Positions 1-34,109 of a DNA stretch of 34,109 nt are shown piece after piece; the first letter of the stretch is position 1; every line of letters begins with the position of its first letter. The position numbers and the translations under genes are program-made. The stretch comes from a virus (lineage: Duplodnaviria > Heunggongvirae > Uroviricota > Caudoviricetes). The notes below the pieces were generated by a model. The model was not told the origin of the DNA, made no database searches, and saw only the letters and a program-made list of their open reading frames with translations. The DNA lies in the IMG/VR virus record IMGVR_UViG_2913167280_000005, positions 1 to 34,109 of that record, one strand, 5' to 3'.

Positions 1-285
1 ATGGGCACACCACGATTTACCCCAGAGTTTAAGGAGGAAGCTGTCCGTCAGGTTACTGAACGGGGCTATTCCGTTGCCGATGTTTCTGAACGCCTCGGCG
101 TATCGGCTCACAGCCTTTATAAGTGGGTCCGGTCAGTCAGACCGGATAACAGCGAGCATCAGGCGCAGGATTTACTGGATGCGCGGACGGAGATTCTCAG
201 GCTTAAAGCGCAGCTTAAACGTACTGAGGAAGAACGGGATATTCTGAAAAAGGCAGCGCGGTACTTTGCAAGGGAGCCCGACTGA
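1..285 (+). CDS. IS3-family transposase OrfA (HTH DNA-binding part)
   Basis: 94-aa ORF starting at window position 1; motif FTPEFKEEAVRQV and a leucine-zipper-like C-terminus as in IS3-family OrfA (family knowledge). The true start may be at or upstream of position 1. Confidence 0.85.
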   Translation: MGTPRFTPEFKEEAVRQVTERGYSVADVSERLGVSAHSLYKWVRSVRPDNSEHQAQDLLDARTEILRLKAQLKRTEEERDILKKAARYFAREPD

Positions 286-332
286 AGTACCGCTTCATCA
301 ACGATCACCGTGAAATCTGGTCGATCGTAACA

Positions 333-1136
333 ATGTGTCGGGTTCTGAAGGTCGCCCGTGCGGGATTTTACGTCTGGCTTCATCGCCCTGTTTCTGCCGG
401 AGAAAAGGATAATCAGCGGTTGCTGGAGCTCATCCGCGATGCTTATGCACTGAGCGGCGGAGTCTACGGTTATCGCAGGGTTCACGGCGATCTTCGTGAA
501 ATCGGTGAAGTATGCAGCAGAAACCGAGTTGCCAGAATCATGAAGCGGAACAGGATACAGGCCGTACATGGCTATAAGGTCCCGCGTGGCGTCAGGGGAA
601 GGCCGTCACTGATAGCTCCTAATCGCGTACAGCGGGAATTTACGGTGGTAAAACCCAACCAGGTGTGGGTAACTGATATTACCTACATCCGCACCTGGCA
701 GGGTTGGCTGTATCTGGCGGTGGTTATCGATCTTTTTGCCCGTAATGTGGTGGGCTGGTCGATGAAACCAACGCTGTCGCGCGAGCTGGCACTGGATGCG
801 CTGCTGATGGCAGTCTGGCGGCGTAAGCCTGCAGAAAACGTCATAGTGCACAGCGATCAGGGCAGTCAGTATGGCAGTGATGACTGGCAGCGGTTCTGCA
901 GGGCCAACAATCTGGCGCCGAGCATGAGCCGTCGTGGCAACTGCTGGGATAATGCGGTGGCAGAATCGTTCTTCAGTTCACTGAAAAAAGAGCGCATCAG
1001 AAAGCGGATATATAAAACCCGGGACATGGCCCGGGCGGATATCTTCGATTACATTGAAGTGTTCTACAACCGGACCCGACGCCACAGTCATCTGGGTGGC
1101 GTCAGCCCGGAGGCCTTCGAAAAGGCCTCACCGTGA
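333..1136 (+). CDS. IS3-family transposase OrfB (DDE catalytic domain), likely made as an OrfAB fusion by -1 frameshift near 247-252
   Basis: 267-aa ORF with rve-type integrase-core motifs (VWVTDITYI, LYLAVVIDLFARNVVGW, GNCWDNAVAESFF); the frame is open upstream to the slippery site. Confidence 0.85.
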   Translation: MCRVLKVARAGFYVWLHRPVSAGEKDNQRLLELIRDAYALSGGVYGYRRVHGDLREIGEVCSRNRVARIMKRNRIQAVHGYKVPRGVRGRPSLIAPNRVQREFTVVKPNQVWVTDITYIRTWQGWLYLAVVIDLFARNVVGWSMKPTLSRELALDALLMAVWRRKPAENVIVHSDQGSQYGSDDWQRFCRANNLAPSMSRRGNCWDNAVAESFFSSLKKERIRKRIYKTRDMARADIFDYIEVFYNRTRRHSHLGGVSPEAFEKASP

Positions 1137-1330
1137 GGACAGAAACTGTCTACCGGAATGTGGTCACTCCATACCTTGATCATCAAAAGCTGGTATTTTA
1201 TTAGCTCGTTCAGCAGAAGACGGTAACTGATTAATTTGCTCAGGAACCCGTAATGTACGACCTAAGTTAGTGCTGGCAGTAGAGTCAACATAGTTCTTTG
1301 TGGCTGCATCCTGCGGCTGAGATGGGTCTT

Positions 1331-1765
1331 TTAAATTACGGATGTAATTATTAGTGCATCATAATAATTTGAGATAAAGGAAGGCTTACGAAGGGCTAGC
1401 CGAAGGAAACCGAAGCATTGCTGTATCAGCATTGTCAACTTATCGAAAGCATCCTCGTGAACCTCGGCGAAAAACTTCCCCTGATTACGGAGATCAATCT
1501 CCTGGGTAACCGGCAGGTCGCGAGAGATCGAAATCTGCCAGGCAGTAGTGAGTGGCGTAGCCAGAACTACATTGCCGCCGGAATATGACCCGGCACCTTG
1601 CACTGTGTAATCAGTGTCAAGAATCAGCGTGGTTAGGTTCTCGTCAAGATCCACAACCTGTACAACCAGGTCGGCTTTCTGGAAGATTCGGAAGGTGTAT
1701 GGGAATGAAGTCGTGACTCCGTTCCCGTTATATTCATTGTGGTCGACTTCGGTAGAGACCGTCAT
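1331..1765 (-). pseudogene. tail fibre/tailspike gene, N-terminal particle-binding fragment only (truncated)
   Basis: Starts MTVSTEVDHNEYNGNGVTTSFPYTFRIF, recalled as the conserved N-terminus of enterobacterial phage tail fibre/tailspike proteins; ATG at 1765 with GGAGA 7 nt upstream (track ORF begins at an upstream GTG at 1804). Only 144 codons, with no distal receptor-binding or catalytic domain, and it ends about 200 bp from the IS. Confidence 0.55.
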
Positions 1766-2250: not shown

Positions 2251-2261
2251 TGACATGTCAC
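2250..2261. repeat. 12-bp palindrome GTGACATGTCAC, copy 1 of 3
   Basis: Exact palindrome overlapping the stop codon of the 64-aa membrane-protein gene; the same motif recurs at 20545 and 22897. Confidence 0.45.
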
Positions 2262-2452
2262 AGAAGAGGAAGTTTGAACACGATCGCCGCCAGCACCACA
2301 AACGTTAGGAAGTAGACAGCTTTTGACGATGTTTCTCCTAGCAAGCCCTTATCAATAGCAAAGATTATCGCCCACAAATATGCGGTTCCGCAGGCAACAA
2401 CCACAGCAAACCAGAAGATAATCAGACCTAGCTTCAGTAAAATATCCATCAT
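2258..2452 (-). CDS. small membrane protein (64 aa, 2-3 predicted TM helices); virion/ejection-associated or holin-like
   Basis: Strongly hydrophobic sequence (LGLIIFWFAVVVACGTAYLWAIIFAI, AVYFLTFVVLAAIVF); start overlaps the stop of the upstream gene. Confidence 0.5.
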   Translation of the reverse strand: MMDILLKLGLIIFWFAVVVACGTAYLWAIIFAIDKGLLGETSSKAVYFLTFVVLAAIVFKLPLL

Positions 2453-5205
2453 TGCCCTACCGCCTTACCTAAATCCGGCGCACGTCTTGGCGCTGTATCA
2501 CCAGGCTCCCACCAACTGGTGGTGTTGAACTCCCGCTGGGCCCGGTCTCTCACCCTATCGTTGTAGCCAGGGTTTGCCATCTCCTGAAGCTGTTGCAGGA
2601 TCAGATGATTGGTCACCGCTTTAGCATACCAGAGGTTGGCGAACGGGGTGATCATGCGCGCCGTCTTCAGCGCATCGGCGCCGAATGACGTCTCTTCACC
2701 TTGTAGCGCCTTCTGTGGGTTGGTGATGAGGAGTTTAGTCAACTGTTCAGCGAAGCTCAGTACAGGGCCGCCCAGAGTGGCCGCAATACTGGAGCCGTAC
2801 TGCGTGTGGTCCTGGAACAGGAAATCGCCGTAGATGCCGAATGAACCACCTTTAAGCAGCGGCTGAATCCACGTCGTAGGCTTCGTCATATCAAGCGGGT
2901 CATTACCAGTAAGCAACGAGTTCATCTGGTTGGCAAACATGCCTGCCAGCGTTGTTCCAGCAATGTATGACGCAAGGAACTTGATACCGGGCACGCGGTC
3001 AAGATCTATTGTACGGTTAACCAACTGACGGAACCCGGCAAACGACGTGGTTTTGAATAGCATGAAGCTCTTCACCAGTTGTCCGGCATCATCACGGGCA
3101 TATGTATCCAGCCCGGTCGCCGTCGTGATGGCACTGGTCATTTCTCCGTGTGTGACACCCAGCAGTTTTTGAGCCGCTTCAGCACGGGCATTACGAACCA
3201 TGCGAGCAACAGTCTGTTCTGCCTCTGCATCGAACGCCTGTTTCATCCTGGTTCGACGTTCCTGTGGGATATCACCAAGAGCCGCCAAAGCGGTTTCACT
3301 CCCGGCCCTAACCTGCGCAATTCGATCAGCCATGATTGCGTGTATCGCTTCATCAGGTACGGCGTAAATCGCGTCCGGTGTCATTCCCATGTGGCCTGCT
3401 GTGGTCATTGGCCTGAGTTCTGCTGCCGCCATGATAGCCCAGTCCTCATTGCTCCAGCCTTTGCTGGCAAGAATGGTCTTGTCTGACCCCTTCACCTCAT
3501 CCAGCGTTTTAAAAGTGCGTGTCAGTTCGCCGATGTTCTTGTACATCAGCAGACCGAACGAAGCTTTGTTGGCGCGGTCCATTGCGATAAGACCGGACCA
3601 CTTCAGCGTCTTCTCAGCAAACCAGCCGGTGATGCCACGTGACAGGTCAAAGCCGCCCATCTTCGATACCACTGCGGCATGAGAATCCACCAGCAGGCCA
3701 AGCTCAGCATTAGCTCGCTTTGCGTCACCGCTGAACAGGTTTTTGATGGTGTTAGCAGAGAGACGCATACCGCCTCGCGAGAAGCCAAGAGCCTGAGCGT
3801 TGGCACGCATGATGGCCTGGTCACTGGTCGCCGTCAGAACGCTGGTACCGAGCATGGCGCTGGTCATCAGGTTACGCAGACCGCCGACGGCTGACGTGAA
3901 CACGCTTGATTCCTGCACGCCATTCAAACCGGCCATTGAGTTAAACATGCGCTCAACCATCGTTTTCTCGCTGTTCATCTTACCGACGTCTTTACCACCG
4001 GTGACTGCACGCTGATAAATCCTGTCGTTAATCAGCTTGAAGTTATTCGCCGCGTCTGGGCCAAAGGCCTTTACAGTGCCCAGGTCTCGAGACGATGACT
4101 GAAGGTGTGACATCATCACGCCGACAACCGGCTGTTCGGTGTAGCGTTCCATGTACGCGAAGTGCGACTGTGCATCCTTGAACGCCATCACCCTGCTCTG
4201 CGAACCACGATTTTTAATGCCACCTGTTCCCATGAATGCGCCGGGGTCCAACTTGTTCGCACCGTCTGTCGCCTTGGTTTCGTAAATGGCCTCCAGCGCC
4301 TGGCGGTACTCGATGTCATTCATCGGTGAGCCGTCGAGATTCACATACTGCGAGCGGTCTTGCGTGTTGTACACGTCGTCGACCCAGGCCTGTTTAGCAA
4401 ACTCAATCGGCGGCTGCCGTCCTGATAATCGAGCCTTGGCCTGCTCCGCTGCAGAAAGGCTGGCAAGCCATTCATCGCGGCCTGAATTACGGATAAGGTC
4501 AGCATCGTCGACATACGGCAGATTCCAGTTATCACGCTGCCCGATATCAAACCCGGCGTCGTTCATCTCCTGACGAGCCCGGCTGGTCACATCACCCCAG
4601 ACCTGAGCTATTTTCTTCGCCTGTGGGTTGCCCGTGTCTTCACCGTAAATCTCTTTGAGGATCTGCAACTGCCCGGACTTCGCCACGCGCTGATCGAACA
4701 GGCTGCGGAAGCGTTGCTCGCCGAGTGCCTTACTCTGCTCGAAAAACTTCTGCACTTCTGGCCCGGCCTTCAGTAGTTCGGCGCTTAGTTGGCGAGACCA
4801 GTCCTGATATGCGCCGGTGGCGAGTTCTTCCGCCGAGGTAACAGGAATATCAGTTCTGTCTGTTGTACGACGGCCGGAGAAAATAAGTTGCTGGAGGTTG
4901 GCTGGGGTTTGCTGCTCTGGCGGGATGGCGGCATCCAGCGTATCGGTGACTTTCGATATGGCAATCGCATTTTGCGCAAGGCGCTGGCGCTTCTTATACA
5001 CGTCATGCACCACGCGCTGGCGAACCAACTCGGCGGCATCCATATATGTCTGAGCGTCGGGGATACCAGTTTTGCCTTCTCGTGCATTGTTGCGGCTGAC
5101 CTGACGGACGGCTTCCTTGATGCGGTCCTCAATATTTTTCAACTCATCGGCCTTTGGCTTGCGCCCAAGCGTCTGCGCAATGGCTTCTACACATGCCTGT
5201 TTCAT
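2449..5205 (-). CDS. large internal virion/ejection protein (about 918 aa)
   Basis: Long ORF in the structural operon; ATG at 5205 overlaps the upstream stop (TAATG) with GAGGAA upstream (track start is a GTG at 5226). Function is from size and position in a T7-like gene order. Confidence 0.6.
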   Translation of the reverse strand: MKQACVEAIAQTLGRKPKADELKNIEDRIKEAVRQVSRNNAREGKTGIPDAQTYMDAAELVRQRVVHDVYKKRQRLAQNAIAISKVTDTLDAAIPPEQQTPANLQQLIFSGRRTTDRTDIPVTSAEELATGAYQDWSRQLSAELLKAGPEVQKFFEQSKALGEQRFRSLFDQRVAKSGQLQILKEIYGEDTGNPQAKKIAQVWGDVTSRARQEMNDAGFDIGQRDNWNLPYVDDADLIRNSGRDEWLASLSAAEQAKARLSGRQPPIEFAKQAWVDDVYNTQDRSQYVNLDGSPMNDIEYRQALEAIYETKATDGANKLDPGAFMGTGGIKNRGSQSRVMAFKDAQSHFAYMERYTEQPVVGVMMSHLQSSSRDLGTVKAFGPDAANNFKLINDRIYQRAVTGGKDVGKMNSEKTMVERMFNSMAGLNGVQESSVFTSAVGGLRNLMTSAMLGTSVLTATSDQAIMRANAQALGFSRGGMRLSANTIKNLFSGDAKRANAELGLLVDSHAAVVSKMGGFDLSRGITGWFAEKTLKWSGLIAMDRANKASFGLLMYKNIGELTRTFKTLDEVKGSDKTILASKGWSNEDWAIMAAAELRPMTTAGHMGMTPDAIYAVPDEAIHAIMADRIAQVRAGSETALAALGDIPQERRTRMKQAFDAEAEQTVARMVRNARAEAAQKLLGVTHGEMTSAITTATGLDTYARDDAGQLVKSFMLFKTTSFAGFRQLVNRTIDLDRVPGIKFLASYIAGTTLAGMFANQMNSLLTGNDPLDMTKPTTWIQPLLKGGSFGIYGDFLFQDHTQYGSSIAATLGGPVLSFAEQLTKLLITNPQKALQGEETSFGADALKTARMITPFANLWYAKAVTNHLILQQLQEMANPGYNDRVRDRAQREFNTTSWWEPGDTAPRRAPDLGKAVGQ

Positions 5206-7142
5206 TATGGATTCCTCAGGAAGCACGCCGCCGCAACGGAGTAAACTTTCGATTTTGCTTTTGCAGTCTGGATCTGCTCGTCAAAGTCAGCCAGAACATC
5301 GGATAACTTCATCTGCTGCCCGGTGTCAGGATGCGTTACGGTCAGATCAGGATTAGCTGTCGCCATGTCGCGCGCTGCCATCAATTCATAGTTGTTGTCA
5401 GAAATGGCCTGTCCACTGTCCGGATCAACGCTTACCTGTCCGGCATCTTCATCAACACGAGAAAATGCGCTTTCGCTGCGTGGAGCCTGCGCCTCCATGA
5501 CGGCATCACGCGGCGTTTCATAGTGAACGCCATTCTCCTGGAAAACCTGCTCCATTGCATGGTACTGATCGTTGGCTGACTCCAGCATGCCAGGACGCGC
5601 CGGGCCATCCAGCCCACGCGCCTGCATAACGATGTTAACCGGCTGGCCTTCTGACAACTGACGGGCTGCCTCATCCATGGCGGCCACATGGCTGTTAATA
5701 CTCTCGTTTGTACCATGCAGTACTGGTGCAGATTCGATGTCGTAATACAACCCCTCGTTCAGCGTGTGTGCCGCGTCAATGTCGCTGGGTTTGATTGGTG
5801 TTTCCGGAACCAGGCCGCGCATACTCTCAGGAATGATCCCCTGTTCCATACGTGATAAGTCGGCTTTTGCCTCGTAGAACTGGCCGCCTGGCTCATGCGG
5901 AGCCAGGGTGTCTCTGGCGTTTTGCAGACGGTCTCGCGCAACAGTCAGCTGATTGCTGATATCGATTAATTTCTCACGATTGGCTTCGTAGTAGCGCTTG
6001 TTGGCACCCGCTGAGCCGGTCGGCTGAGCATCACGAATTGCCTTTTCCTCGGCCTCCAGTCGCGCCACAGTTCGCTCACCATTGGCAATATCTGATTGCC
6101 ACACTTTCCTGTCACCGCGTGACATCAGTTTCCCGGCGCTGTCCTGTAGTTCTGCCATCCTGGAATCGAATGTTGCTGGTGGCTGCACTGCATCTGTAGG
6201 CGTTCCGATCTCAACAGTTGCTTGCTGCGTAGCATCGACAGGAGCAGCATCAGGTGCAACAATTCCATCAGGTGCGCTCTGCACCTCAGCCGCCGGGATA
6301 GGCGCTTCCACATCGACAGGGTTTGCTGTATCAGTGGCAACCGTGTCGGCACCATCAGCACCGCGCGCAGAAAGATGGTGAGCGCCACCGAACGCGCCGC
6401 CCAGTACCGCATCAATCATCACAGCCTGTCCATCCCATACGCGGTACTGCTTCGCCATATCGGAATAGCCTTTTTCTTCCAGCGTTTCTCCGACGGAAAA
6501 ACGGTTTATACCGCCGAATCCGACGTTGATCCCCACGCCTGAAGCGATACGCGTCAGCAGTGTTTTCCCAAGCGCGGCAGGAAGCGCCATACCCGCAGCG
6601 TTGAAGGTACTTTGCTGCGCTGCGAGATTACGCGCCGTGGACTCATCCACTCCCTTAGCTCTGAAATCCTGATAAGACTGCTCATAAGTAGAGCCGAATG
6701 CCGTTGACGCACCAATAACCGGGCCGCCAGCGATCGTTGCACCAATTGCAGGAACGAACTGGCCCAGACCATTTAACACTTCGGCGGCAGTTCCCTGGCT
6801 TGCCGGGTCTGGTTTGACGTATGCACGCGCACTCTTCAGCGAGTCACTCAGGCTGTCGTAGCTTTCATTGAGCTGCTTGTCAGCATCAGGGAACATCACG
6901 CGGAACATATTCACCGTCGGGGCTACAGCATCAGCCAGAGCAGGATCGCTGATCAGCCGCTTACTGAATCCCACAGCCGACTGCGCCAGCCCCGTAGCGC
7001 CCTCCGCAATGCCGCGCGGCAATGCAGACGCAGATCCCTGAAAGAATGTCGGGTCGTAGTCTTCTGGCCTGGCTGGGTTGGCCTGTGTCTTGTCATCAGT
7101 CCATGCCTGGCCTTCTGGTGCCAGCGAAAATACATCTGCCAT
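5205..7142 (-). CDS. internal virion/ejection protein (645 aa, Ala/Gly-rich segments)
   Basis: ATG at 7142 overlapping the upstream stop; composition and position typical of podovirus core proteins. Confidence 0.6.
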   Translation of the reverse strand: MADVFSLAPEGQAWTDDKTQANPARPEDYDPTFFQGSASALPRGIAEGATGLAQSAVGFSKRLISDPALADAVAPTVNMFRVMFPDADKQLNESYDSLSDSLKSARAYVKPDPASQGTAAEVLNGLGQFVPAIGATIAGGPVIGASTAFGSTYEQSYQDFRAKGVDESTARNLAAQQSTFNAAGMALPAALGKTLLTRIASGVGINVGFGGINRFSVGETLEEKGYSDMAKQYRVWDGQAVMIDAVLGGAFGGAHHLSARGADGADTVATDTANPVDVEAPIPAAEVQSAPDGIVAPDAAPVDATQQATVEIGTPTDAVQPPATFDSRMAELQDSAGKLMSRGDRKVWQSDIANGERTVARLEAEEKAIRDAQPTGSAGANKRYYEANREKLIDISNQLTVARDRLQNARDTLAPHEPGGQFYEAKADLSRMEQGIIPESMRGLVPETPIKPSDIDAAHTLNEGLYYDIESAPVLHGTNESINSHVAAMDEAARQLSEGQPVNIVMQARGLDGPARPGMLESANDQYHAMEQVFQENGVHYETPRDAVMEAQAPRSESAFSRVDEDAGQVSVDPDSGQAISDNNYELMAARDMATANPDLTVTHPDTGQQMKLSDVLADFDEQIQTAKAKSKVYSVAAACFLRNP

Positions 7143-8122
7143 TATTCGACCCTCACCACGATAGCCTGCCCTGTTTTCGGATCGGTTGCCCAGCGCCCAC
7201 TGCCGCTAACCATCCTGTACTGTCCGTTACCGATATTCACCGGCGTGAAGTTGCTGGCGGCGTTTTCGTTCAGCCCGGCATCTTTAAGCGCCTGCTGCGC
7301 TGATACGGTATAGCGGTCCTTGAAGGTGCTTTTGTCCATGCCAAACGGCATTACCACATCGCCACCATTGAATCCCTTATAAATACCACCAGTTGCCATC
7401 TGCGCAGCTTTGGAAACCACATCTGAATTCGCCGCGTCTGTGCGTGCCAGGCCGCTGTCACCTGACTGATATGCAATACCAGCATACGCAGCCTTAAACA
7501 GGCTATAGCTCATCTGGCGAGCCTGAGCGTTATAGGAAAACGAGTTGCCGACCTCATCATCGAAAGCGCGCTTGAGCTTGTCATCGCTCGGCAGTTGGAC
7601 GGGCTGAATGCCGGAGTCCTTCATCGCCTTCGTCGGATTCAGCAACTGATCCCCGGCCAGAATAGTTTTTGAAACGTCGTACTTGTTCATAGTCGGCTTG
7701 TAGCCAATGAACTGATCGTACGAAATAACCGGGTTCTTGTTGTCGTACTGGTTGTCAGGCGTACCAAGCAGCAGCGCGGAATAGGCCGTCGCCGCATTGT
7801 TCGGAGCAATAGCCCCGGCTACCTGCCGCATTGCCGCCGGTGGCAGTGATTGCCCCATGCTCTGCAACAGGTTAATGGTCTGATTAACGTTCTGCGTGCC
7901 GCGAACCTGCTGCGCCAGTGTAGCCGCCTCTTCGCTTGAAAGGATTGGCGCAGTGATACCGAGTTGCTTAAGCCCTTCCTGCGCAGAGAAACGGCTGGAA
8001 ACTTCTTTCGTGATGTCCTGCGGGTTGTTGGTGCTGAGCGGGTGATACGCGCCAATATCGACTGCCGCGTTGAACGGGTTATTCTGGCGATCGCTGATAA
8101 CCTTTGTAGCAGCCGTTTTAAC
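7142..8122 (-). pseudogene. open reading frame continuing the 8123-9682 gene past an in-frame TAG; no independent start signal
   Basis: Same reading frame as the 519-codon ORF. The 85 codons between the TAG (8123-8125) and the first start codon (TTG 7867, ATG 7858) contain no stop and no ATG/GTG/TTG, and there is no Shine-Dalgarno before 7858. The translation looks protein-like (VKTAATKVISDRQNNPFNAAVDIGAYHPLSTNNPQDITKEVSS...). Confidence 0.45.
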
Positions 8123-9682
8123 CTAGTCGAATAACTGAGCGCGCGACGCATACCCCTCGCCAGTTTCGCCAGTGTCAGGTCGCAGTTGATTCACATAGGC
8201 AGTGATGCTGCTAGTCGGCATATTGCGGAATGAGCCAATGTACTGACCGGCAACCTGAGTATTCTTGAATTCGGTATAACGGAGATTTCCTTCACGTACA
8301 CCATAAGCCGCCATGAATGCCGCTTCATCAGGTGGGTTGGGGAACTCAACGCCGCGCATGTATGCGGCGGTGGCATCGCGTACCTGACCATCAATAGTGG
8401 TTTTGTACTGCGCTTGCTGCTGCTTACGCATCTGGTCAGCCTGGCGCATAAACGTTGCCTGAGCTTCTGGTGAGGCAGCGTCAAACGCCGCATTCCCGGT
8501 GTAACGCTTCCCGACCGTCGGCAACTCTGACAGGCCGAGCGCAGCGCTAACTCCGCTGCCGATCTGCTCTTTGGTGTACGGCTGATCCCCGTTCTCATGC
8601 TTGATGATTGCCGAGCACAGCGCACTCAGTGTGTCAGGGTTTGATGCGTCAATCTGCTGATCGGGATGAACACCAAGTTGAGCACAGACGGCTTTGACAT
8701 AAGCAGACGTATCGTTGTTGTCACCAGGCGGTGCCCAGCGGTTAATGATGTCGTTTACCGTATCAATGCCCTGACGCTGGTATGAAAGTAGATTGCGACC
8801 CAGCGCACGAATGCCATGCTCTGGCGTTTCGAATTTGGCAAAGCGGCCGTCATCACCATTCTGGCCTACCCACGGATTAGACTTGCTGTATTCGAGATTA
8901 CCGGGGTTGTTATTTCGGATGCCGCGCGCACCTTCCGCGCCGGAAACATCTGGAGTGCTGGCAACGGCCCGGCGTGAACCAACAACCGTGTCACTAAGCT
9001 CCCCATTCTTCTCGATGAATTCCATGGAGTTATTAGCTGACCATTGCGACAGCGCGTTATCGGCCACCTTCTCTTTGAACTCATTTTTTTTGGCGGTGAT
9101 TTGCTCAGCACTCCAGCCATGCGCCGCACAGTAATCATCAATCTGCTGGAATGTCTGCGAGTTAGCATTAACGTACGCGGCATTATTGCCGTACATCGAT
9201 GCGGCAGTTTTCCCGTTATTCAGCAAAGTGGCCTGGAACTGGCCTTCTTCGTAGGCATTGAGTTGCCCGACTTCATGCCGCCCGGCCTGTGCAGTGAACT
9301 GTATGCGCTGATTCTGAGCTTGCTGGAGGAATCCAGCCCGTGCAGACTCCGGCAGCGTTAGTGCCAGTTCCTGCGCTTTCATGTCGAATTGCTGGGTGTA
9401 CTCCTGGCCTTTGCCAAGAGCATTTTTTCCCTGAAGATTAAGCAGACCCGTATCCGGGTTTGTCATCAGATCACTGGCTGTCTGGCTCAGTTGCAGCGAT
9501 GCATCCTGAGACATGGCAACGTCGGCGCGCAGCTTGGCCTGACCGAGAATGTTCACATACTGATCGGCAACATTCGCCAGGCCACCGCCGAACACATCCG
9601 GGGATGCCTGCACATTGAAACCGCCAGTTGATACACCGCGGCTCTCAACCTGACGACCAGTTGTAGTTGGAACTACTGGCAT
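8123..9682 (-). CDS. internal virion protein, N-terminal part (519 aa), terminated by an in-frame TAG
   Basis: ATG at 9682 with strong AAGGAGGA upstream. Contains a conserved-looking block GIRNNNPGNLEYSK...RWAPPGDNN that I cannot assign to a family. Confidence 0.6.
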   Translation of the reverse strand: MPVVPTTTGRQVESRGVSTGGFNVQASPDVFGGGLANVADQYVNILGQAKLRADVAMSQDASLQLSQTASDLMTNPDTGLLNLQGKNALGKGQEYTQQFDMKAQELALTLPESARAGFLQQAQNQRIQFTAQAGRHEVGQLNAYEEGQFQATLLNNGKTAASMYGNNAAYVNANSQTFQQIDDYCAAHGWSAEQITAKKNEFKEKVADNALSQWSANNSMEFIEKNGELSDTVVGSRRAVASTPDVSGAEGARGIRNNNPGNLEYSKSNPWVGQNGDDGRFAKFETPEHGIRALGRNLLSYQRQGIDTVNDIINRWAPPGDNNDTSAYVKAVCAQLGVHPDQQIDASNPDTLSALCSAIIKHENGDQPYTKEQIGSGVSAALGLSELPTVGKRYTGNAAFDAASPEAQATFMRQADQMRKQQQAQYKTTIDGQVRDATAAYMRGVEFPNPPDEAAFMAAYGVREGNLRYTEFKNTQVAGQYIGSFRNMPTSSITAYVNQLRPDTGETGEGYASRAQLFD

Positions 9683-9691
9683 AAATCCTCC

Positions 9692-10234
9692 TTATCGACC
9701 GGTTGGTGTGCCGATGGATGAGCTGATCGGGGCGGCCTGGCTCTGCGTGAACGGACTCCAGGAACCACCGCCCATCTGATACGCGCCGTAGGCCTTAGCC
9801 GGAGCGGTCAACAGTGTCTGCGTTACTGCTGATTTACCCTGATAAGCTGCCATGTTTCCCTGGGCCTGTGAGTTCATGGAACTCACCTGATAGCCGTAGG
9901 CCTCGCGCTGTGCGTTATTCACAGTGGTCAACGCATCGAGGGTGCCGAATTGCGCGGTGTCACCGAACATATCCAGTGCTGATCCTGAAGAAAGGTCTGC
10001 ACCGGTTGCACCCATGGTGGCCGCCTGGGTACCCTGGCGCTGGCGCATTTCGCGGCGGCGCTGTTCGGCTTCTGCGTTGCCACGGTTGATTGAGTCCTGC
10101 GCCTGATTCTCTGCAATGTCAGAGTTCTGATCTGCAACTGCTTGCTGGTATTTAGAGGACTGATGCTGACTGTAGGCACTCATAGCCGTTGACGCTACGG
10201 TCACCGCCACCAGTGCAATCGCTGGGCTACACAT
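9692..10234 (-). CDS. virion protein with N-terminal hydrophobic segment (180 aa, Gly/Ala/Gln-rich)
   Basis: ATG at 10234; N-terminus MCSPAIALVAVTVASTAMSA is signal- or TM-like; position matches T7 gp13/gp14-type small core proteins. Confidence 0.5.
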   Translation of the reverse strand: MCSPAIALVAVTVASTAMSAYSQHQSSKYQQAVADQNSDIAENQAQDSINRGNAEAEQRRREMRQRQGTQAATMGATGADLSSGSALDMFGDTAQFGTLDALTTVNNAQREAYGYQVSSMNSQAQGNMAAYQGKSAVTQTLLTAPAKAYGAYQMGGGSWSPFTQSQAAPISSSIGTPTGR

Positions 10235-25898: not shown

Positions 25899-26573
25899 CT
25901 ATGCGCCGTCGCTTCGAACCATGATGATGTGCCGCGCCAGCTTCTGCTGCCACTGGTATTGATTAAGCGACACCTCTTCGCATTTCCAGAAGTCGATGAA
26001 TGACGCCAACTCTGTTTTCCTGACACCTCGCTCAACCGGCGTACCCCATTCTTTCGACTGCTCTGCAAAGTCTGGATCTGGCCTCCAGTCTGAATGCATC
26101 AAAAAGTTATCCACAGAGTTTTTCGCGCGCGCGTTATGAGTGGGGTTTATATGGGGTTTATATTCTTCCTCTTCCTCTTCCTCTGGTAACGTTTTTTGTA
26201 ACGCTGGTTGCGTTACCTTTTGCGTTTCACGCTTTCTAAGTTCTGCCACCCTTCTGTTTGTAAGTGCTCGTTTTTTCGATGATTCTCCGTTATGCCGCTC
26301 AAAGTTAGGCAGGATGAGCTTTCCTTCCTGATAGGCAAGCCAGCCTACAGAGATCAGTGCGTCGGCGAATCCTGTAATAAAAGCGATCCTGTCGAACACT
26401 CCCTTTGTAACGCTGCCAGCGTTACCGTCTATCGTTTGTTGATCGGCCCATGCCCATATGCGAACCAACTTTCCAAGAACAGCATCCGGGTCAATATTCA
26501 ACAGTTCTGCTATCTGGAAAATCTCGGGCTTGTCAGGGGTGATTACTTCAACCTTAATCCAACTACTTGCCAT
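25899..26573 (-). CDS. replication protein (DnaT-like / replisome-organiser-type N-terminal domain, 224 aa)
   Basis: N-terminal region recalled as typical of prophage DnaT-like replication proteins; acidic EEEEEEE linker; position in the replication module. Confidence 0.55.
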   Translation of the reverse strand: MASSWIKVEVITPDKPEIFQIAELLNIDPDAVLGKLVRIWAWADQQTIDGNAGSVTKGVFDRIAFITGFADALISVGWLAYQEGKLILPNFERHNGESSKKRALTNRRVAELRKRETQKVTQPALQKTLPEEEEEEEYKPHINPTHNARAKNSVDNFLMHSDWRPDPDFAEQSKEWGTPVERGVRKTELASFIDFWKCEEVSLNQYQWQQKLARHIIMVRSDGA

Positions 26574-27624
26574 AGTTCACCCCCATATAAGCCCGGATGA
26601 ATTCAGCCTCAGCCTGTGCGTTTATGGCGTTACCGTAACCCTTAAGGCGGCCTGTTCGGTTGCGGCCTGCCAGTGCTCGTAATGAGGACTTTCCGTGTCC
26701 CAGGCTTTTGGCAAACCTTGCAACCAACGGGAATGTGCCGGATTCAACTGGACGCCATTGCCCATCTCGACAAAAGAGCCAGTCCGCATCTCGCCAAAAA
26801 CCGTTAACCTCAAGGGGCCCGCTGTGTATGCCTGTCTCGGCAACTGATCCAGTCGCTCCTTTCCATCCCGCTGCGCTGTCATGCCAGATGTGTCCTTCCA
26901 GTCGCGAGTCGTTGGCGTTACCCATCCGGCTAGTAGTGCTGTGCCCGGTAGTTTCAGGCAGACTTTCGGTGACCCGTCCTGATTTCTCCCGCTGTAGCAA
27001 TGAGTCGAACCGGTTGAATCGTTCGCCATTGGTGTTTGCCATCCCGTTAACCGCGCCGCTCCGGAGACATGTTGCAGGCCGCGCTTCGTTTCCGGCTGCG
27101 GGTTTGTGTTCGCCACTGGCGTGGGCCACCCAGTAGGCCCGCTCTCTGATGTGCGGCGCACCGACGCCCGCTGCCGCAAACGGCACAAGCCCGAAGGCGT
27201 ATCCCAATCCTTCCAGGTCAGCTTGTACAAGGTCGAACCATGGGTTTGCGTTACCAGCTGCAACCTGTTCGCCAAAGACATGCTGAGGTCCGCACTCGCT
27301 GATGAGGTGGAAGAAGGCTGGCCATAAGTGCCGCTCGTCATCAAACCCATCTCCTTTACCTGCCGCGCTGAAAGGCTGGCACGGGGGGGAGCCTGTCCAT
27401 ACTGGTTTATCGTCAGGCCATCCGGCGAGGCGGAGGGAGTGAGACCAGACACCGATCCCGGCAAAAAAGTGGTGCTGAGTGAATTCTCGCAGGTCGTCAG
27501 GTGTGACATCTTCAATGCTCCTTTCGTCAACTTCACCGGGCGCTATGTGTCCGCCGGCGATTAGGTTACGCAGCCACTGAGCTGCAAACGGGTCAATTTC
27601 GTTGTAGTACGCGGCTGGGATCAT
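26563..27624 (-). CDS. DNA cytosine-5 methyltransferase (Dcm-type)
   Basis: C5-MTase motifs FAGIGV (motif I) and PPCQPFSAAGK (motif IV, catalytic PCQ); ATG at 27624 overlaps the upstream stop (track ORF extends to 27696). Confidence 0.85.
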   Translation of the reverse strand: MIPAAYYNEIDPFAAQWLRNLIAGGHIAPGEVDERSIEDVTPDDLREFTQHHFFAGIGVWSHSLRLAGWPDDKPVWTGSPPCQPFSAAGKGDGFDDERHLWPAFFHLISECGPQHVFGEQVAAGNANPWFDLVQADLEGLGYAFGLVPFAAAGVGAPHIRERAYWVAHASGEHKPAAGNEARPATCLRSGAVNGMANTNGERFNRFDSLLQREKSGRVTESLPETTGHSTTSRMGNANDSRLEGHIWHDSAAGWKGATGSVAETGIHSGPLEVNGFWRDADWLFCRDGQWRPVESGTFPLVARFAKSLGHGKSSLRALAGRNRTGRLKGYGNAINAQAEAEFIRAYMGVNYGK

Positions 27625-27815
27625 GCTGCTTCTCCCGCTGCTTTCATCAGAGCTTTGATTTCTGCCTGCCGACGGCGGTTTGTTTCCATCGTGCATTCGA
27701 CGCAGTGTCCGTTATATGTCCAGCGTTCGCTTTGATGTCCGTGTTTGCAGACCTTGCCAGTGTAGTAGCGCTTCAACCCGCTTTTAGCGGCATCATTGCG
27801 CGTAATAATCTCCAT
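27621..27815 (-). CDS. small zinc-ribbon protein (64 aa) directly downstream of the Cro-like gene
   Basis: CKHGH...HCVEC motif; AGAGG upstream of the ATG. Confidence 0.55.
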   Translation of the reverse strand: MEIITRNDAAKSGLKRYYTGKVCKHGHQSERWTYNGHCVECTMETNRRRQAEIKALMKAAGEAA

Positions 27816-32811: not shown

Positions 32812-33113
32812 AAAGCATTTCAAGAGCGGAGCGTTATCGCAATGATTATGTGCCGCTTCGCCGCTGTGAGAAGGTTGTGGCGGTCACTGCTGAAGCAATG
32901 GAGATAGAGAGCCGCGCAGTAGAACGTGAAAAACGTGGGCAGTATCGCATTGCCGCCCGTCTTTGGCTGGAATGTATGGACGCGGCACAGGGTGAAGTTG
33001 AGCGCGCCCGTATCGCAGTACGTCGAACTCAATGCATTGCGCGGGGAAATGGCCTGCGCCGAGGCGAGTATTCTGGAATTAGTGCAGGTTGTAATGGGGT
33101 GGTTTATGACTAA
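32808..33113 (+). CDS. PerC-like small transcriptional regulator (about 101 aa)
   Basis: AEAMEIESRAVEREKRGQYRIAARLW resembles the conserved PerC-family core (recalled); ATG at 32808 with GAGAGGG upstream (track ORF starts at 32724). Confidence 0.45.
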   Translation: MKSISRAERYRNDYVPLRRCEKVVAVTAEAMEIESRAVEREKRGQYRIAARLWLECMDAAQGEVERARIAVRRTQCIARGNGLRRGEYSGISAGCNGVVYD

Positions 33114-33750
33114 GTACACGCTAATCTACGCAGATCCGCCTTGGGTTTACCGTGACAAAGCTGCCGACGGAAGCCGCGGGGCCGGGTTCAAATACCCGGT
33201 AATGAACGTCATGGATATATGCCGCCTGCCAGTATGGGATCTGGCCGCCGACGATTGCCTTCTGGCGATGTGGTGGGTGCCGACTCAACCGGTCGAAGCG
33301 CTGAAGGTTGTCGAGGCATGGGGATTCAGGCTGATGACCATGAAGGGCTTCACCTGGCACAAAACGAATAAGCACAAAGGCAACAGCGCGATAGGAATGG
33401 GCCACATGACCCGGGCGAACAGCGAAGACTGTCTGTTTGCCGTTCGAGGAAAACTACCGGCGCGCATGGATGCCTCGATATGCCAGCACATCACGGCACC
33501 GCGGATGGAGAACTCGCGCAAGCCGGATCTCATTCGCGAAAAACTGGTGCAGTTGCTTGGCGATGTACCAAGGATCGAGCTTTTCGCCCGCCAGTCGTCG
33601 CATGGCTTCGACGTATGGGGCAATCAGTGCGAAGGCCCGGCGGTGAAGTTGCAACCAGGATATGCGCTTGATATCGCTGGATTGACGCAGGCATTAAAAA
33701 ACACTCCGCTATCACCATCAGATAAGCAGGGCCAGGAGCGTGCAGCATGA
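33106..33750 (+). CDS. MT-A70-family DNA N6-adenine methyltransferase
   Basis: IYADPPW catalytic motif near the N-terminus; ATG at 33106 (an alternative ATG at 33094 is in frame; track start at 32926). Confidence 0.85.
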   Translation: MTKYTLIYADPPWVYRDKAADGSRGAGFKYPVMNVMDICRLPVWDLAADDCLLAMWWVPTQPVEALKVVEAWGFRLMTMKGFTWHKTNKHKGNSAIGMGHMTRANSEDCLFAVRGKLPARMDASICQHITAPRMENSRKPDLIREKLVQLLGDVPRIELFARQSSHGFDVWGNQCEGPAVKLQPGYALDIAGLTQALKNTPLSPSDKQGQERAA

Positions 33751-34109
33751 GTGGATCACTGGAAAAACTTGCTATTCAGCAATATGAATTAACGACTGAA
33801 ATTAAACGTTTGAAAAAACTTTCTGGAGAAATTATTGAAAAATGCCACCCAGAGGATATTGAATCAAACGATCCTGCTAAAGGTTATTTCAACCATATCC
33901 AGTGGGTAATTCAGCTTCATAAAGAGCAGGAGCCAGACTACCCATTTGGACCGGAAAGCTTTGGCGACATATTTAATGCTGAAGTTACCTGCCCTCATTG
34001 TCGTGAATGGTACAGAATACAGAGGAAAGAAATACTTCCTCTTAAACGCAAGCTTGGTTCAGTTAAAGGAGCAATCACCAAAGCCGGAAAACGACTTGCC
34101 ACAGCCTAA
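33747..34109 (+). CDS. hypothetical protein (120 aa) with Cys/His motifs, AT-rich gene
   Basis: ATGA overlap with the methyltransferase stop; CH..(n)..CPHC motifs; visibly lower GC than neighbouring genes; stop is at the window end. Confidence 0.5.
   Translation: MSGSLEKLAIQQYELTTEIKRLKKLSGEIIEKCHPEDIESNDPAKGYFNHIQWVIQLHKEQEPDYPFGPESFGDIFNAEVTCPHCREWYRIQRKEILPLKRKLGSVKGAITKAGKRLATA

What the first reader, a model, noticed from the sequence alone, without database searches (positions are those of the whole stretch)
7142..9682. Single in-frame TAG splits an 846-codon internal-virion-protein frame
The 519-codon ORF (8123-9682) and the 241-codon ORF (7142-7867) are in the same frame. The 85 codons between the TAG at 8123-8125 and 7867 contain no stop, and also no ATG/GTG/TTG, and encode ordinary-looking protein. 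There is no ribosome-binding site before the first ATG at 7858, unlike neighbouring genes, which are translationally coupled. This is either a nonsense (amber) mutation in a decaying prophage, which would fit the truncated tail fibre, or stop-codon read-through or suppression used to make a long and a short form.
Basis: seen in the sequence. Interest (0 to 1): 0.6.

Follow-up and report, generated by a model that had tools for sequence, protein, structure and literature searches.

The report
Amber mutation in prophage ejection-protein gene
A single C-to-T change has turned a glutamine codon into a stop in the middle of a prophage gene for an internal virion (DNA-ejection) protein; this is an ordinary inactivating mutation in a prophage that is also crippled by an insertion sequence in its tailspike gene.

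Summary
On the minus strand, one 846-codon frame (9682..7145) is interrupted by a single TAG at 8125..8123, and the next in-frame start lies 85 codons further on. The frame is the epsilon15/SPN1S-type internal virion protein that follows the T7-gp14-like gene. It carries an endolysin-like domain at aa 252-385. All 12 orthologous loci and the 120 best database homologues are single ORFs of 806-946 aa. The aligned residue is Gln in 103 of 120, and the four closest loci have CAG, so TAG is one C>T transition from CAG. A search with the N-terminal 519 aa alone found no other 519-aa form. The TAG recurs in two GenBank assemblies of Escherichia cryptic clade II strains and in two independent assemblies from public sequencing reads, so it is not an assembler artefact. 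No gene product is on record for this stretch in either GenBank assembly. The prophage encodes no tRNA, and TAG ends three other genes in the window. Substitution counts downstream of the stop show no relaxed constraint, so the mutation is recent. The tailspike gene of the same prophage is interrupted by an IS3-family element. Verdict: a recent nonsense pseudogene in a defective prophage, not programmed read-through. Interest is low.

The parts
8126..9682 (-). Codons 1-519 of the interrupted internal virion (ejection) protein gene. This is the only part expected to be translated. In RefSeq it is WP_240780589.1 (519 aa).
   Evidence: ORF. It matches phrog_992 positions 1-447 at E=6e-177. An exact protein match is in NCBI nr and in a Logan assembly.
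9687..9692 (-). Shine-Dalgarno sequence AGGAGG, 4 nt upstream of the ATG at 9682.
   Evidence: Read directly from the sequence.
8528..8929 (-). Endolysin-like (putative peptidoglycan hydrolase) domain, aa 252-385, with the motif GIRNNNPGN. It lies upstream of the stop and is retained in the truncated product.
   Evidence: phmmer against PDB: 9vvp_L Gp29 at E=3e-38 and 7q47_A Endolysin at E=1e-17. PHROG hits carry the annotations endolysin and tail injection transglycosylase.
8123..8125 (-). In-frame amber codon TAG (codon 520). It derives from CAG (Gln) by one C>T transition, which is G>A on the + strand at 8125.
   Evidence: CAG in the four closest loci L001, L005, L006 and L010. Gln in 103 of 120 homologues. 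The identical TAG is present in L004, L015, L016 and L017.
7145..8122 (-). Codons 521-846, the C-terminal module. It is still an intact open frame but has no start codon or ribosome-binding site of its own for 85 codons, so it is inferred to be untranslated.
   Evidence: phrog_992 positions 449-759 at E=1e-96. It is 91% identical to L010. Lineage-specific changes are 19 non-synonymous to 48 synonymous, against 18 to 51 in the intact relative.
7142..7144 (-). Original TAA stop of the gene. It overlaps the ATG of the next gene by one base (TAATG).
5205..7142 (-). Downstream 645-aa virion gene (phrog_1145). It is normally translationally coupled to the interrupted gene, so it may suffer polarity from the premature stop. 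The polarity is inferred, not shown.
   Evidence: The gene is full length and has no stops when compared with the ET358 orthologue.
9692..10234 (-). Upstream T7-gp14-family internal virion protein gene (180 aa). It fixes the position of the interrupted gene within the ejection-protein operon.
   Evidence: Pfam PF24072 at E=2e-9, above the curated cut-off. phrog_418.
1..1172 (+). IS3-family element (ISEc24-like, 99.2% identical to E. coli copies), cut off by the window start. It is inserted in the tailspike gene and is a second lesion in the same prophage.
   Evidence: The full element is L015 15972-17203, with tailspike-like sequence on both sides.
1173..1765 (-). Remnant of the tailspike N-terminal (head-binding) domain, about 198 codons. 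It has a 1-nt deletion near 1353 and ends at the IS junction.
   Evidence: The conceptually repaired 198 aa align in one piece at 100% coverage and about 76% identity to the SPN1S and E15-type tailspikes. The deletion is visible in the DNA alignment with SPN1S.

Best explanation
The stretch 9682..7142 (-) is one gene of an epsilon15/SPN1S-like (Uetakevirus-like) prophage of Escherichia cryptic clade II, integrated beside guaA. The gene encodes the roughly 846-aa internal virion (ejection) protein that follows the T7-gp14-like gene and carries an endolysin-like domain. A recent C>T transition changed Gln codon 520 (CAG) to amber (TAG). Translation therefore stops after 519 residues. The 326-codon C-terminal module has no start or ribosome-binding site and is not made. 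Loss of translational coupling may also lower expression of the two large virion genes downstream. Together with the IS3 insertion in the tailspike gene, this leaves a defective prophage that cannot make infectious particles.

Shown: the gene is a single unit in all relatives; the ancestral codon was CAG; the TAG is reproducible across assemblies; other lesions exist in the same prophage; no suppressor tRNA is encoded in the prophage.

Inferred: the C-terminal part is not translated; polarity on downstream genes; the prophage is non-infectious.
For: - Single-gene status. Both halves match one PHROG profile end to end, positions 1-447 and 449-759 of phrog_992.
- Orthologous loci. All 12 encode one uninterrupted ORF: 806 aa or more at L009, whose match starts inside the gene, and 836-946 aa at the other eleven. 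CAG is at the aligned codon in the four closest, and CAT/CAC/AAT in the others.
- Database homologues. The 120 best are all 840-943 aa, and the aligned residue is Gln in 103 of them.
- Unbiased check for short forms. A search with only the 519-aa part gave 116 of 120 hits at 835-845 aa. No other 519-aa form appeared outside this protein's own cluster.
- Reproducibility. The TAG is present in GCA_004212315.1, GCA_004745395.1 (strain E2593) and Logan assemblies of SRR8835200 and SRR6148325. WP_240780589.1 is labelled MULTISPECIES.
- Annotation. No gene product is on record between the gp14-like gene and the 645-aa gene in either GenBank assembly. That is consistent with a pseudogene call, which I did not see directly.
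- Rest of the prophage. All other structural genes are full length and stop-free against the E. coli ET358 prophage. The tailspike gene, however, is interrupted by an IS3 element.
- Age of the mutation. Downstream of the TAG the window lineage has 19 non-synonymous and 48 synonymous changes, against 18 and 51 in the intact L010 lineage (Fisher p=0.85). The inactivation is therefore recent.
Against: - Raw reads could not be inspected.
- The assemblies carrying the TAG are almost identical to each other: 2 differences in 17 kb, both at homopolymers. At least one is Ion Torrent data (PMC6639607). They may represent one clone from one site rather than independent lineages.
- The host genomes could not be scanned for an amber suppressor.
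- The downstream frame is still perfectly open and shows purifying-selection-like substitution ratios. That fits a recent mutation, but it would also fit a gene that is still functional through read-through.
Confidence: 0.9

Rival explanations
1. The TAG is translated at useful frequency by stop-codon read-through or suppression, giving a 519-aa short form and an 846-aa long form. The reading agent would be a host amber suppressor or near-cognate tRNA-Gln, and the site would be a functional recoding site or a tolerated leaky amber.
For: The ancestral residue is Gln. By established knowledge this is the residue that supE-type suppressors and near-cognate reading of UAG insert, so read-through would restore the wild-type protein. 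The downstream frame is intact and shows no excess of non-synonymous change. The stop lies at the boundary between the two evolutionary modules of the protein.
Against: None of 12 orthologous loci, 120 full-length homologues, or 119 N-terminal-ranked homologues outside its own cluster has a stop here. No tRNA gene lies in the window or in the flanking prophage DNA. TAG ends three other genes in the window. The prophage cannot use the product anyway, because its tailspike gene is interrupted by an IS. Wild enterobacterial isolates are not expected to carry amber suppressors (general knowledge, not tested here).
Confidence: 0.04
2. The TAG is a sequencing or assembly error, and the real gene is intact.
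For: At least one of the assemblies that carry it (E2593, PDII01) is 40-100x Ion Torrent data with evident errors. Both of its differences from the window are at homopolymers, and guaA is left uncalled in it (PMC6639607).
Against: The lesion is a base substitution outside any homopolymer (GAC TAG GTT), which is not the Ion Torrent error type. It appears identically in two GenBank assemblies and in two Logan assemblies built independently from raw reads.
Confidence: 0.04
3. The locus is naturally two genes, a 519-aa protein and a separately initiated C-terminal protein.
For: The stop coincides with a mosaic module boundary. A gene caller did call a 238-aa product downstream. The small family phrog_35810 (201 profile positions) matches part of the C-terminal region.
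Against: No start codon occurs for 85 codons after the stop, and there is no Shine-Dalgarno sequence before TTG 7867 or ATG 7858. Such a product would lack the first 85 residues of the conserved module. Every relative has one ORF.
Confidence: 0.01
4. The phage uses a reassigned genetic code in which TAG is read as Gln, as in some recoded phages.
For: The in-frame TAG aligns with Gln in relatives.
Against: There is only one in-frame TAG in the whole late region, and all other genes are stop-free against their orthologues. TAG terminates three other genes. No suppressor tRNA is encoded in the prophage. The closest relatives use CAG.
Confidence: 0.005

Closest known systems
Internal virion / 'head' protein of epsilon15-like phages (Uetakevirus): SPN1S_0017 (YP_005097992.1, 937 aa), Enterobacter phage Tyrion gp16 (YP_009287748.1, 837 aa), E. 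coli ET358 prophage WP_106486908.1 (842 aa); phrog_992
   Same: Same gene position: after the tail tube genes, the 154-aa gene and the gp14-like gene, and before the roughly 600-645-aa and 824-918-aa virion genes. It is alignable over the full length, at 75-87% amino-acid identity for the closest relatives, and carries the same endolysin-like domain.
   Different: The copy here has an amber codon at position 520 where the relatives have Gln, Asn or His. It therefore encodes only the N-terminal 519 residues.
T7-type ejection (internal core) proteins gp14/gp15/gp16, and gp15-like proteins with lysozyme activity such as K1E/K1-5 gp35 (review PMC8954989)
   Same: An operon that starts with a gp14-family gene (PF24072), followed by large internal proteins, one of which carries a peptidoglycan-hydrolase-type domain. 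PMC8954989 lists Epsilon15 among podoviruses with gp14-, gp15- and gp16-like genes.
   Different: No detectable sequence similarity to T7 gp15 or gp16 (no Pfam hit). The hydrolase-like domain is of the 7q47 endolysin type, not the T7 gp16 lytic transglycosylase type. Ejection was not tested.
Classical amber (nonsense) mutations in phage structural genes, and point-mutation decay of defective prophages in enterobacterial chromosomes (general knowledge)
   Same: A single CAG>TAG transition truncates an essential virion protein. It is accompanied by an IS insertion in another virion gene of the same prophage.
   Different: Nothing substantive. This one is natural rather than laboratory-selected, and it happens to lie at a module boundary.
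Programmed stop-codon read-through or TAG reassignment in phages (general knowledge)
   Same: An in-frame TAG that aligns with Gln.
   Different: The stop is not conserved, no suppressor tRNA is present, and TAG is used as a terminator elsewhere in the same element.

Membership tests
Epsilon15-like internal virion protein family (phrog_992) | Sequence matches the family profile over its full length | tested here: met
   The N-terminal part covers profile positions 1-447 (E=6e-177) and the C-terminal part covers 449-759 (E=1e-96) of the 764 positions.
Epsilon15-like internal virion protein family (phrog_992) | Conserved position in the structural operon, directly after the gp14-family gene | tested here: met
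   Same gene order as SPN1S, Tyrion and the ET358 prophage.
Epsilon15-like internal virion protein family (phrog_992) | Encoded as one uninterrupted ORF of about 840-940 aa | tested here: not met
   An in-frame TAG at codon 520. The locus is therefore a pseudogene copy of the family, not a functional member.
T7-type ejection proteins (gp15/gp16-like) | Lies in an operon with a gp14-family gene | tested here: met
   PF24072 on the upstream 180-aa gene scores 38 bits against a cut-off of 27.
T7-type ejection proteins (gp15/gp16-like) | Sequence similarity to T7 gp15 or gp16 | tested here: not met
   No Pfam family at E<=0.01 for either half. The PDB sequence search gives only Gp29 (9vvp) and an endolysin (7q47).
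T7-type ejection proteins (gp15/gp16-like) | Located inside the capsid and ejected into the host envelope | not testable with these tools
   Needs virion proteomics or cryo-EM.
Nonsense-mutation pseudogene | Orthologues have a sense codon one substitution away from the stop | tested here: met
   CAG in L001, L005, L006 and L010. Gln in 103 of 120 homologues.
Nonsense-mutation pseudogene | The stop is reproducible and not an assembly artefact | tested here: met
   Identical in two GenBank assemblies and two Logan assemblies. Raw reads were not examined.
Programmed read-through / recoding site | The stop codon is conserved among relatives | tested here: not met
   Absent from all 12 loci and from all listed homologues.
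Programmed read-through / recoding site | A cognate suppressor tRNA is available | tested here: inconclusive
   None in the window or in the flanking prophage and host DNA held here.
Phage with TAG reassigned to Gln | TAG is not used as a terminator, and many in-frame TAGs occur | tested here: not met
   TAG ends three other genes, and there is only one in-frame TAG in the structural region.

The most novel reading that the evidence does not exclude
The amber is leaky or useful rather than simply inactivating. One version: near-cognate tRNA-Gln read-through of UAG would insert the ancestral Gln and regenerate wild-type protein, at the low copy number an ejection protein needs. Another version: because the stop falls exactly at the junction of the conserved N-terminal module (which holds the endolysin-like domain) and the exchangeable C-terminal module, the 519-aa product is a stable stand-alone protein retained by the host.
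Probability: 0.03. Interest if true: 0.35.

Novelty: already known. Interest (0 to 1): 0.08.

Why it matters
The main value is for annotation.

- The two ORFs, 519 aa and 241 aa, should be merged and marked as one pseudogene.
- The prophage should be scored as defective, because it has an amber in an ejection-protein gene and an IS in the tailspike gene.
- The in-frame TAG should not be taken as evidence for recoding.

The locus also gives a clean natural example of very recent prophage decay in the little-studied Escherichia cryptic clade II. It opens no new biological question.

Tried and rejected
- **A second TAG-bearing allele.** I first took WP_246769583.1 (K198Q) as evidence of an independent allele carrying the TAG. 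The difference lies next to an A8 run (window 9091). The only other difference in 17 kb is a T-run indel, and strain E2593 was sequenced on Ion Torrent. It is probably a sequencing error, so I dropped it as evidence.
- **The 840-aa member of the same 90% cluster (P0123) and P0147 as direct ancestors.** Their N-terminal parts are about 95% identical, but their C-terminal modules are of the other (SPN1S) type. At the DNA level the L022 locus as a whole is only 83% identical to the window. They are mosaic cousins, not ancestors.
- **A recombination joint as the origin of the TAG.** L010 has the same C-terminal type with continuous homology and CAG at the site, so a simple point mutation suffices.
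- **Promoter and terminator scan of 5000-10000.** Counts were at shuffle expectation, and there is no internal promoter for a C-terminal product.
- **Literature searches** for the assembly and run accessions found nothing.
- **Look-up of P0122** in the contig index found nothing.
- **The megablast phage search** covered only the N-terminal 55-59% of the query, because the listed phages carry the other C-terminal module.
- **Structure prediction, fold search and Rfam** were not run, because they could not change the verdict.
Full report
**Observation**

The minus strand of 7142-9682 is one reading frame of 847 codons: 519 sense codons, TAG at 8125..8123, 326 sense codons and a terminal TAA. The ORF listing reports the two pieces as 8123..9682 (519 aa, ATG) and 7142..7867 (241 aa, TTG). 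That places the first in-frame ATG/GTG/TTG after the TAG 85 codons downstream. The first ATG (7858) has no Shine-Dalgarno sequence before it, whereas the gene's real start at 9682 has AGGAGG at 9692-9687. Neighbouring genes share end and start coordinates at 13172, 10698, 10234 and 7142, which are one-base overlaps typical of translational coupling.

**What the gene is**

The window is an epsilon15/SPN1S-like podovirus prophage. DNA searches hit Salmonella phages 65FD, PAT1 and SPN1S, Enterobacter phage Tyrion (genus Uetakevirus), and prophages in 17 E. coli genomes, at 73-77% identity.

- The gene upstream (9692..10234) is a T7-gp14-family internal virion protein (PF24072).
- The interrupted frame has no Pfam hit. 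Its two halves match one and the same PHROG, phrog_992: the N-terminal part to profile positions 1-447 and the C-terminal part to 449-759.
- Residues 252-385 (motif GIRNNNPGN) match two solved chains by sequence: Gp29 of 9vvp (E=3e-38) and the endolysin 7q47_A (E=1e-17). PHROG hits are annotated endolysin or tail injection transglycosylase.
- By position and content it is therefore the large internal virion (ejection) protein with a peptidoglycan-hydrolase-type domain. The review PMC8954989 lists Epsilon15 among podoviruses with gp14-, gp15- and gp16-like genes. It also notes that hydrolase domains move between gp15-like and gp16-like proteins.
- Membership in the T7 gp15/gp16 families by sequence was tested and not met.

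**Orthologues**

- In the E. coli ET358 prophage, Tyrion and SPN1S the corresponding gene is a single annotated CDS of 842, 837 and 937 aa.
- Nine further loci from species-representative genomes (Scandinavium, Pseudocitrobacter, Ca. Erwinia dacicola, Buttiauxella, Pantoea, Rahnella, Pectobacterium, Klebsiella, Advenella) all read through without a stop. Their lengths are 836-946 aa, except L009, whose match starts inside the gene and reads 806 aa.
- At the column of the TAG, the four closest loci (76-87% identical) have CAG. The others have CAT, CAC or AAT.
- The 120 best database homologues of the conceptually repaired protein are all 840-943 aa. They have Gln at this column in 103 cases, His in 10, Asn in 5, Arg in 1 and Ser in 1.
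- Ranking by full-length score is biased against fragments, so I repeated the search with the 519-aa part alone. Of the 120 best hits, 116 are 835-845 aa and three are 605-690 aa on short Logan contigs. The only 519-aa entry is this protein's own cluster.

The TAG is thus a lineage-specific CAG>TAG transition in a gene that is a single unit everywhere else.

**Is the TAG real?**

- The exact 519-aa product is on record as WP_240780589.1 (MULTISPECIES, unclassified Escherichia).
- The window is 100% identical to GCA_004212315.1 contig RHJM01000016.1 over 17.1 kb, to a Logan assembly of SRR8835200 over 18.5 kb, and to a Logan assembly of SRR6148325 over 7.6 kb.
- It differs at two positions from GCA_004745395.1 (PDII01000024.1). 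All four carry the TAG.
- PDII01 is strain E2593, one of 16 Escherichia cryptic clade II isolates from Hong Kong intertidal sediment, sequenced on Ion Torrent (PMC6639607).
- Both differences between E2593 and the window lie at homopolymers. guaA is uncalled in that assembly but called as intact in the Logan assembly. Indel-type differences in these data therefore deserve caution, and the 'K198Q allele' is probably an error.
- The TAG itself is a substitution in a non-homopolymer context (GAC TAG GTT), which is not the Ion Torrent error type.
- No gene product is on record between the gp14-like gene and the 645-aa gene in either GenBank assembly. That is consistent with a pseudogene call, which I did not see directly.

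I could not inspect reads. The carriers may be one clone.

**State of the rest of the prophage**

- Against the ET358 prophage, every other structural gene is full length and free of stops: terminase, portal, capsid, both tail tube genes, the gp14-like gene, and the 645-aa and 918-aa genes. Only the target has a stop inside its alignment.
- The integrase (414 aa) lies just beyond the window end, next to guaA.
- The lysis genes beyond the other end are called at normal lengths.
- The tailspike gene is broken. Window 1-1172 is an IS3-family element, 99.2% identical to ISEc24 copies in E. coli. It is inserted after about codon 198 of the tailspike N-terminal domain.
- That domain also has a 1-nt deletion near 1353. 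Once the deletion is repaired conceptually, the 198 residues align in one piece at about 76% identity to the SPN1S and E15-type tailspikes.
- Beyond the IS, seen only in the Ion Torrent contig, the beta-helix part is split into two overlapping ORFs and an acyltransferase gene also looks split. I give these last two little weight.
- The IS insertion alone makes the prophage unable to build a normal tailspike.

**Age of the mutation**

I used three outgroups to polarise changes. Downstream of the TAG the window lineage has 19 non-synonymous and 48 synonymous substitutions. The intact Scandinavium lineage has 18 and 51 (Fisher p=0.85). The upstream part gives 46:78 and 41:78. These ratios are far below what I would expect for an unconstrained sequence (an expectation from general knowledge, not computed here). 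The C-terminal module was therefore under purifying selection for essentially the whole branch, and the amber is recent. This fits the absence of any second lesion in 326 codons.

**Alternatives**

- Suppression or read-through. No tRNA gene is present in the window or in 70 kb of overlapping and flanking loci. TAG terminates three other genes in the window. The stop is not conserved. The host genome outside these loci could not be scanned, so a host suppressor is not formally excluded. One is not expected in wild isolates (general knowledge).
- Genetic-code reassignment is excluded by the same TAG usage and by the stop-free state of all other genes.
- A natural two-gene arrangement is contradicted by the lack of any start signal and by all relatives.
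- No promoter-like or terminator-like excess occurs in 5000-10000.

**A curiosity**

The stop falls at a mosaic junction. P0147 (840 aa) is 100% identical in protein sequence to the window from about residue 361 to 521, then drops to about 25% identity. Nucleotide homology between its locus and the window ends at 8121, two bases after the TAG. Two C-terminal module types circulate: the window/ET358/Scandinavium type and the SPN1S/Tyrion type. The 519-aa product thus equals the conserved N-terminal module almost exactly. I regard this as coincidence, because the same-type relative L010 has continuous homology and CAG across the site. It is the only feature that leaves a small opening for a more interesting reading.

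**Likely consequences (inferred)**

Ribosomes terminate 978 nt before the coupled start of the next gene (TAATG at 7142). By the classical polarity mechanism this could reduce expression of the 645-aa and 918-aa virion genes. The truncated protein keeps the endolysin-like domain but lacks the C-terminal module.

**Verdict**

This is a real but ordinary feature: a recent amber nonsense mutation that makes a pseudogene of an ejection-protein gene in a defective prophage. No gene product is on record for it in the GenBank assemblies. Novelty: already known in kind. Interest: about 0.08.

Noticed in passing
window 1-1172 (continues beyond the window start; full element at L015 15972-17203): IS3-family element, 99.2% identical to ISEc24 copies in E. 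coli, inserted in the tailspike gene of the prophage. I saw no clean target-site duplication at the two junctions, so a rearrangement may have accompanied the insertion.
   Followed up: partly
window about 1353 (minus strand; tailspike N-terminal domain 1765..1173): A 1-nt deletion relative to SPN1S (CT-AAT against CTGAAC) shifts the frame after ...SNYYDA. Repairing it restores a 198-aa domain that aligns in one piece to epsilon15-type tailspikes. It could be a sequencing error if the missing base was part of an A run, because at least one of the related assemblies is Ion Torrent data.
   Followed up: partly
window 8121-8125 and protein residues about 495-521: The amber codon sits at a mosaic junction. 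Relatives with an identical N-terminal module (P0147, P0123) switch to an unrelated C-terminal module (SPN1S/Tyrion type) right after codon 521. Some relatives (943-946 aa) also carry an insertion of about 100 aa before the endolysin-like domain.
   Followed up: partly
window 8528-8929 (minus strand): The endolysin-like domain (GIRNNNPGN motif) embedded in an internal virion protein matches solved chains 9vvp_L (Gp29) and 7q47_A (Endolysin) by sequence. No Pfam family covers it.
   Followed up: partly
window 9091: The A/C difference next to an A8 run between the window and the E2593 assembly creates the RefSeq variant WP_246769583.1 (K198Q). A Logan contig of SRR6148325 breaks at this position. 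It is probably an Ion Torrent homopolymer artefact rather than a true allele.
   Followed up: yes
L018 9604-11444 against L019 8342-9919: No product is called for guaA, next to the prophage integrase, in the E2593 GenBank assembly. It is called as an intact 525-aa gene in a Logan assembly of a sister data set. This suggests frameshift errors in the Ion Torrent assembly.
   Followed up: no
L015 17136-19257 and 19286-20211 (beyond the window start): The beta-helix part of the tailspike is split into two overlapping ORFs, and an Acyl_transf_3 gene appears split into pieces of 163 and 108 aa. These are either further decay or assembly indel errors.
   Followed up: no
window 33747-34109 and L018/L019: The prophage is integrated beside guaA with an intact 414-aa integrase. 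This is the same chromosomal site as the related prophage of E. coli ET358.
   Followed up: partly
window 26563-27696 and 33112-33747: Two DNA methyltransferase genes lie in the early region: a 353-377-aa PF00145 C5-methylase and an MT-A70-family methylase. The replication module differs from that of the ET358 prophage.
   Followed up: no
window 2258-2452 (minus strand): A small 64-aa hydrophobic ORF overlaps the stop of the 918-aa virion gene by 4 nt. It is also called in the public assemblies. Its function is unknown.
   Followed up: no
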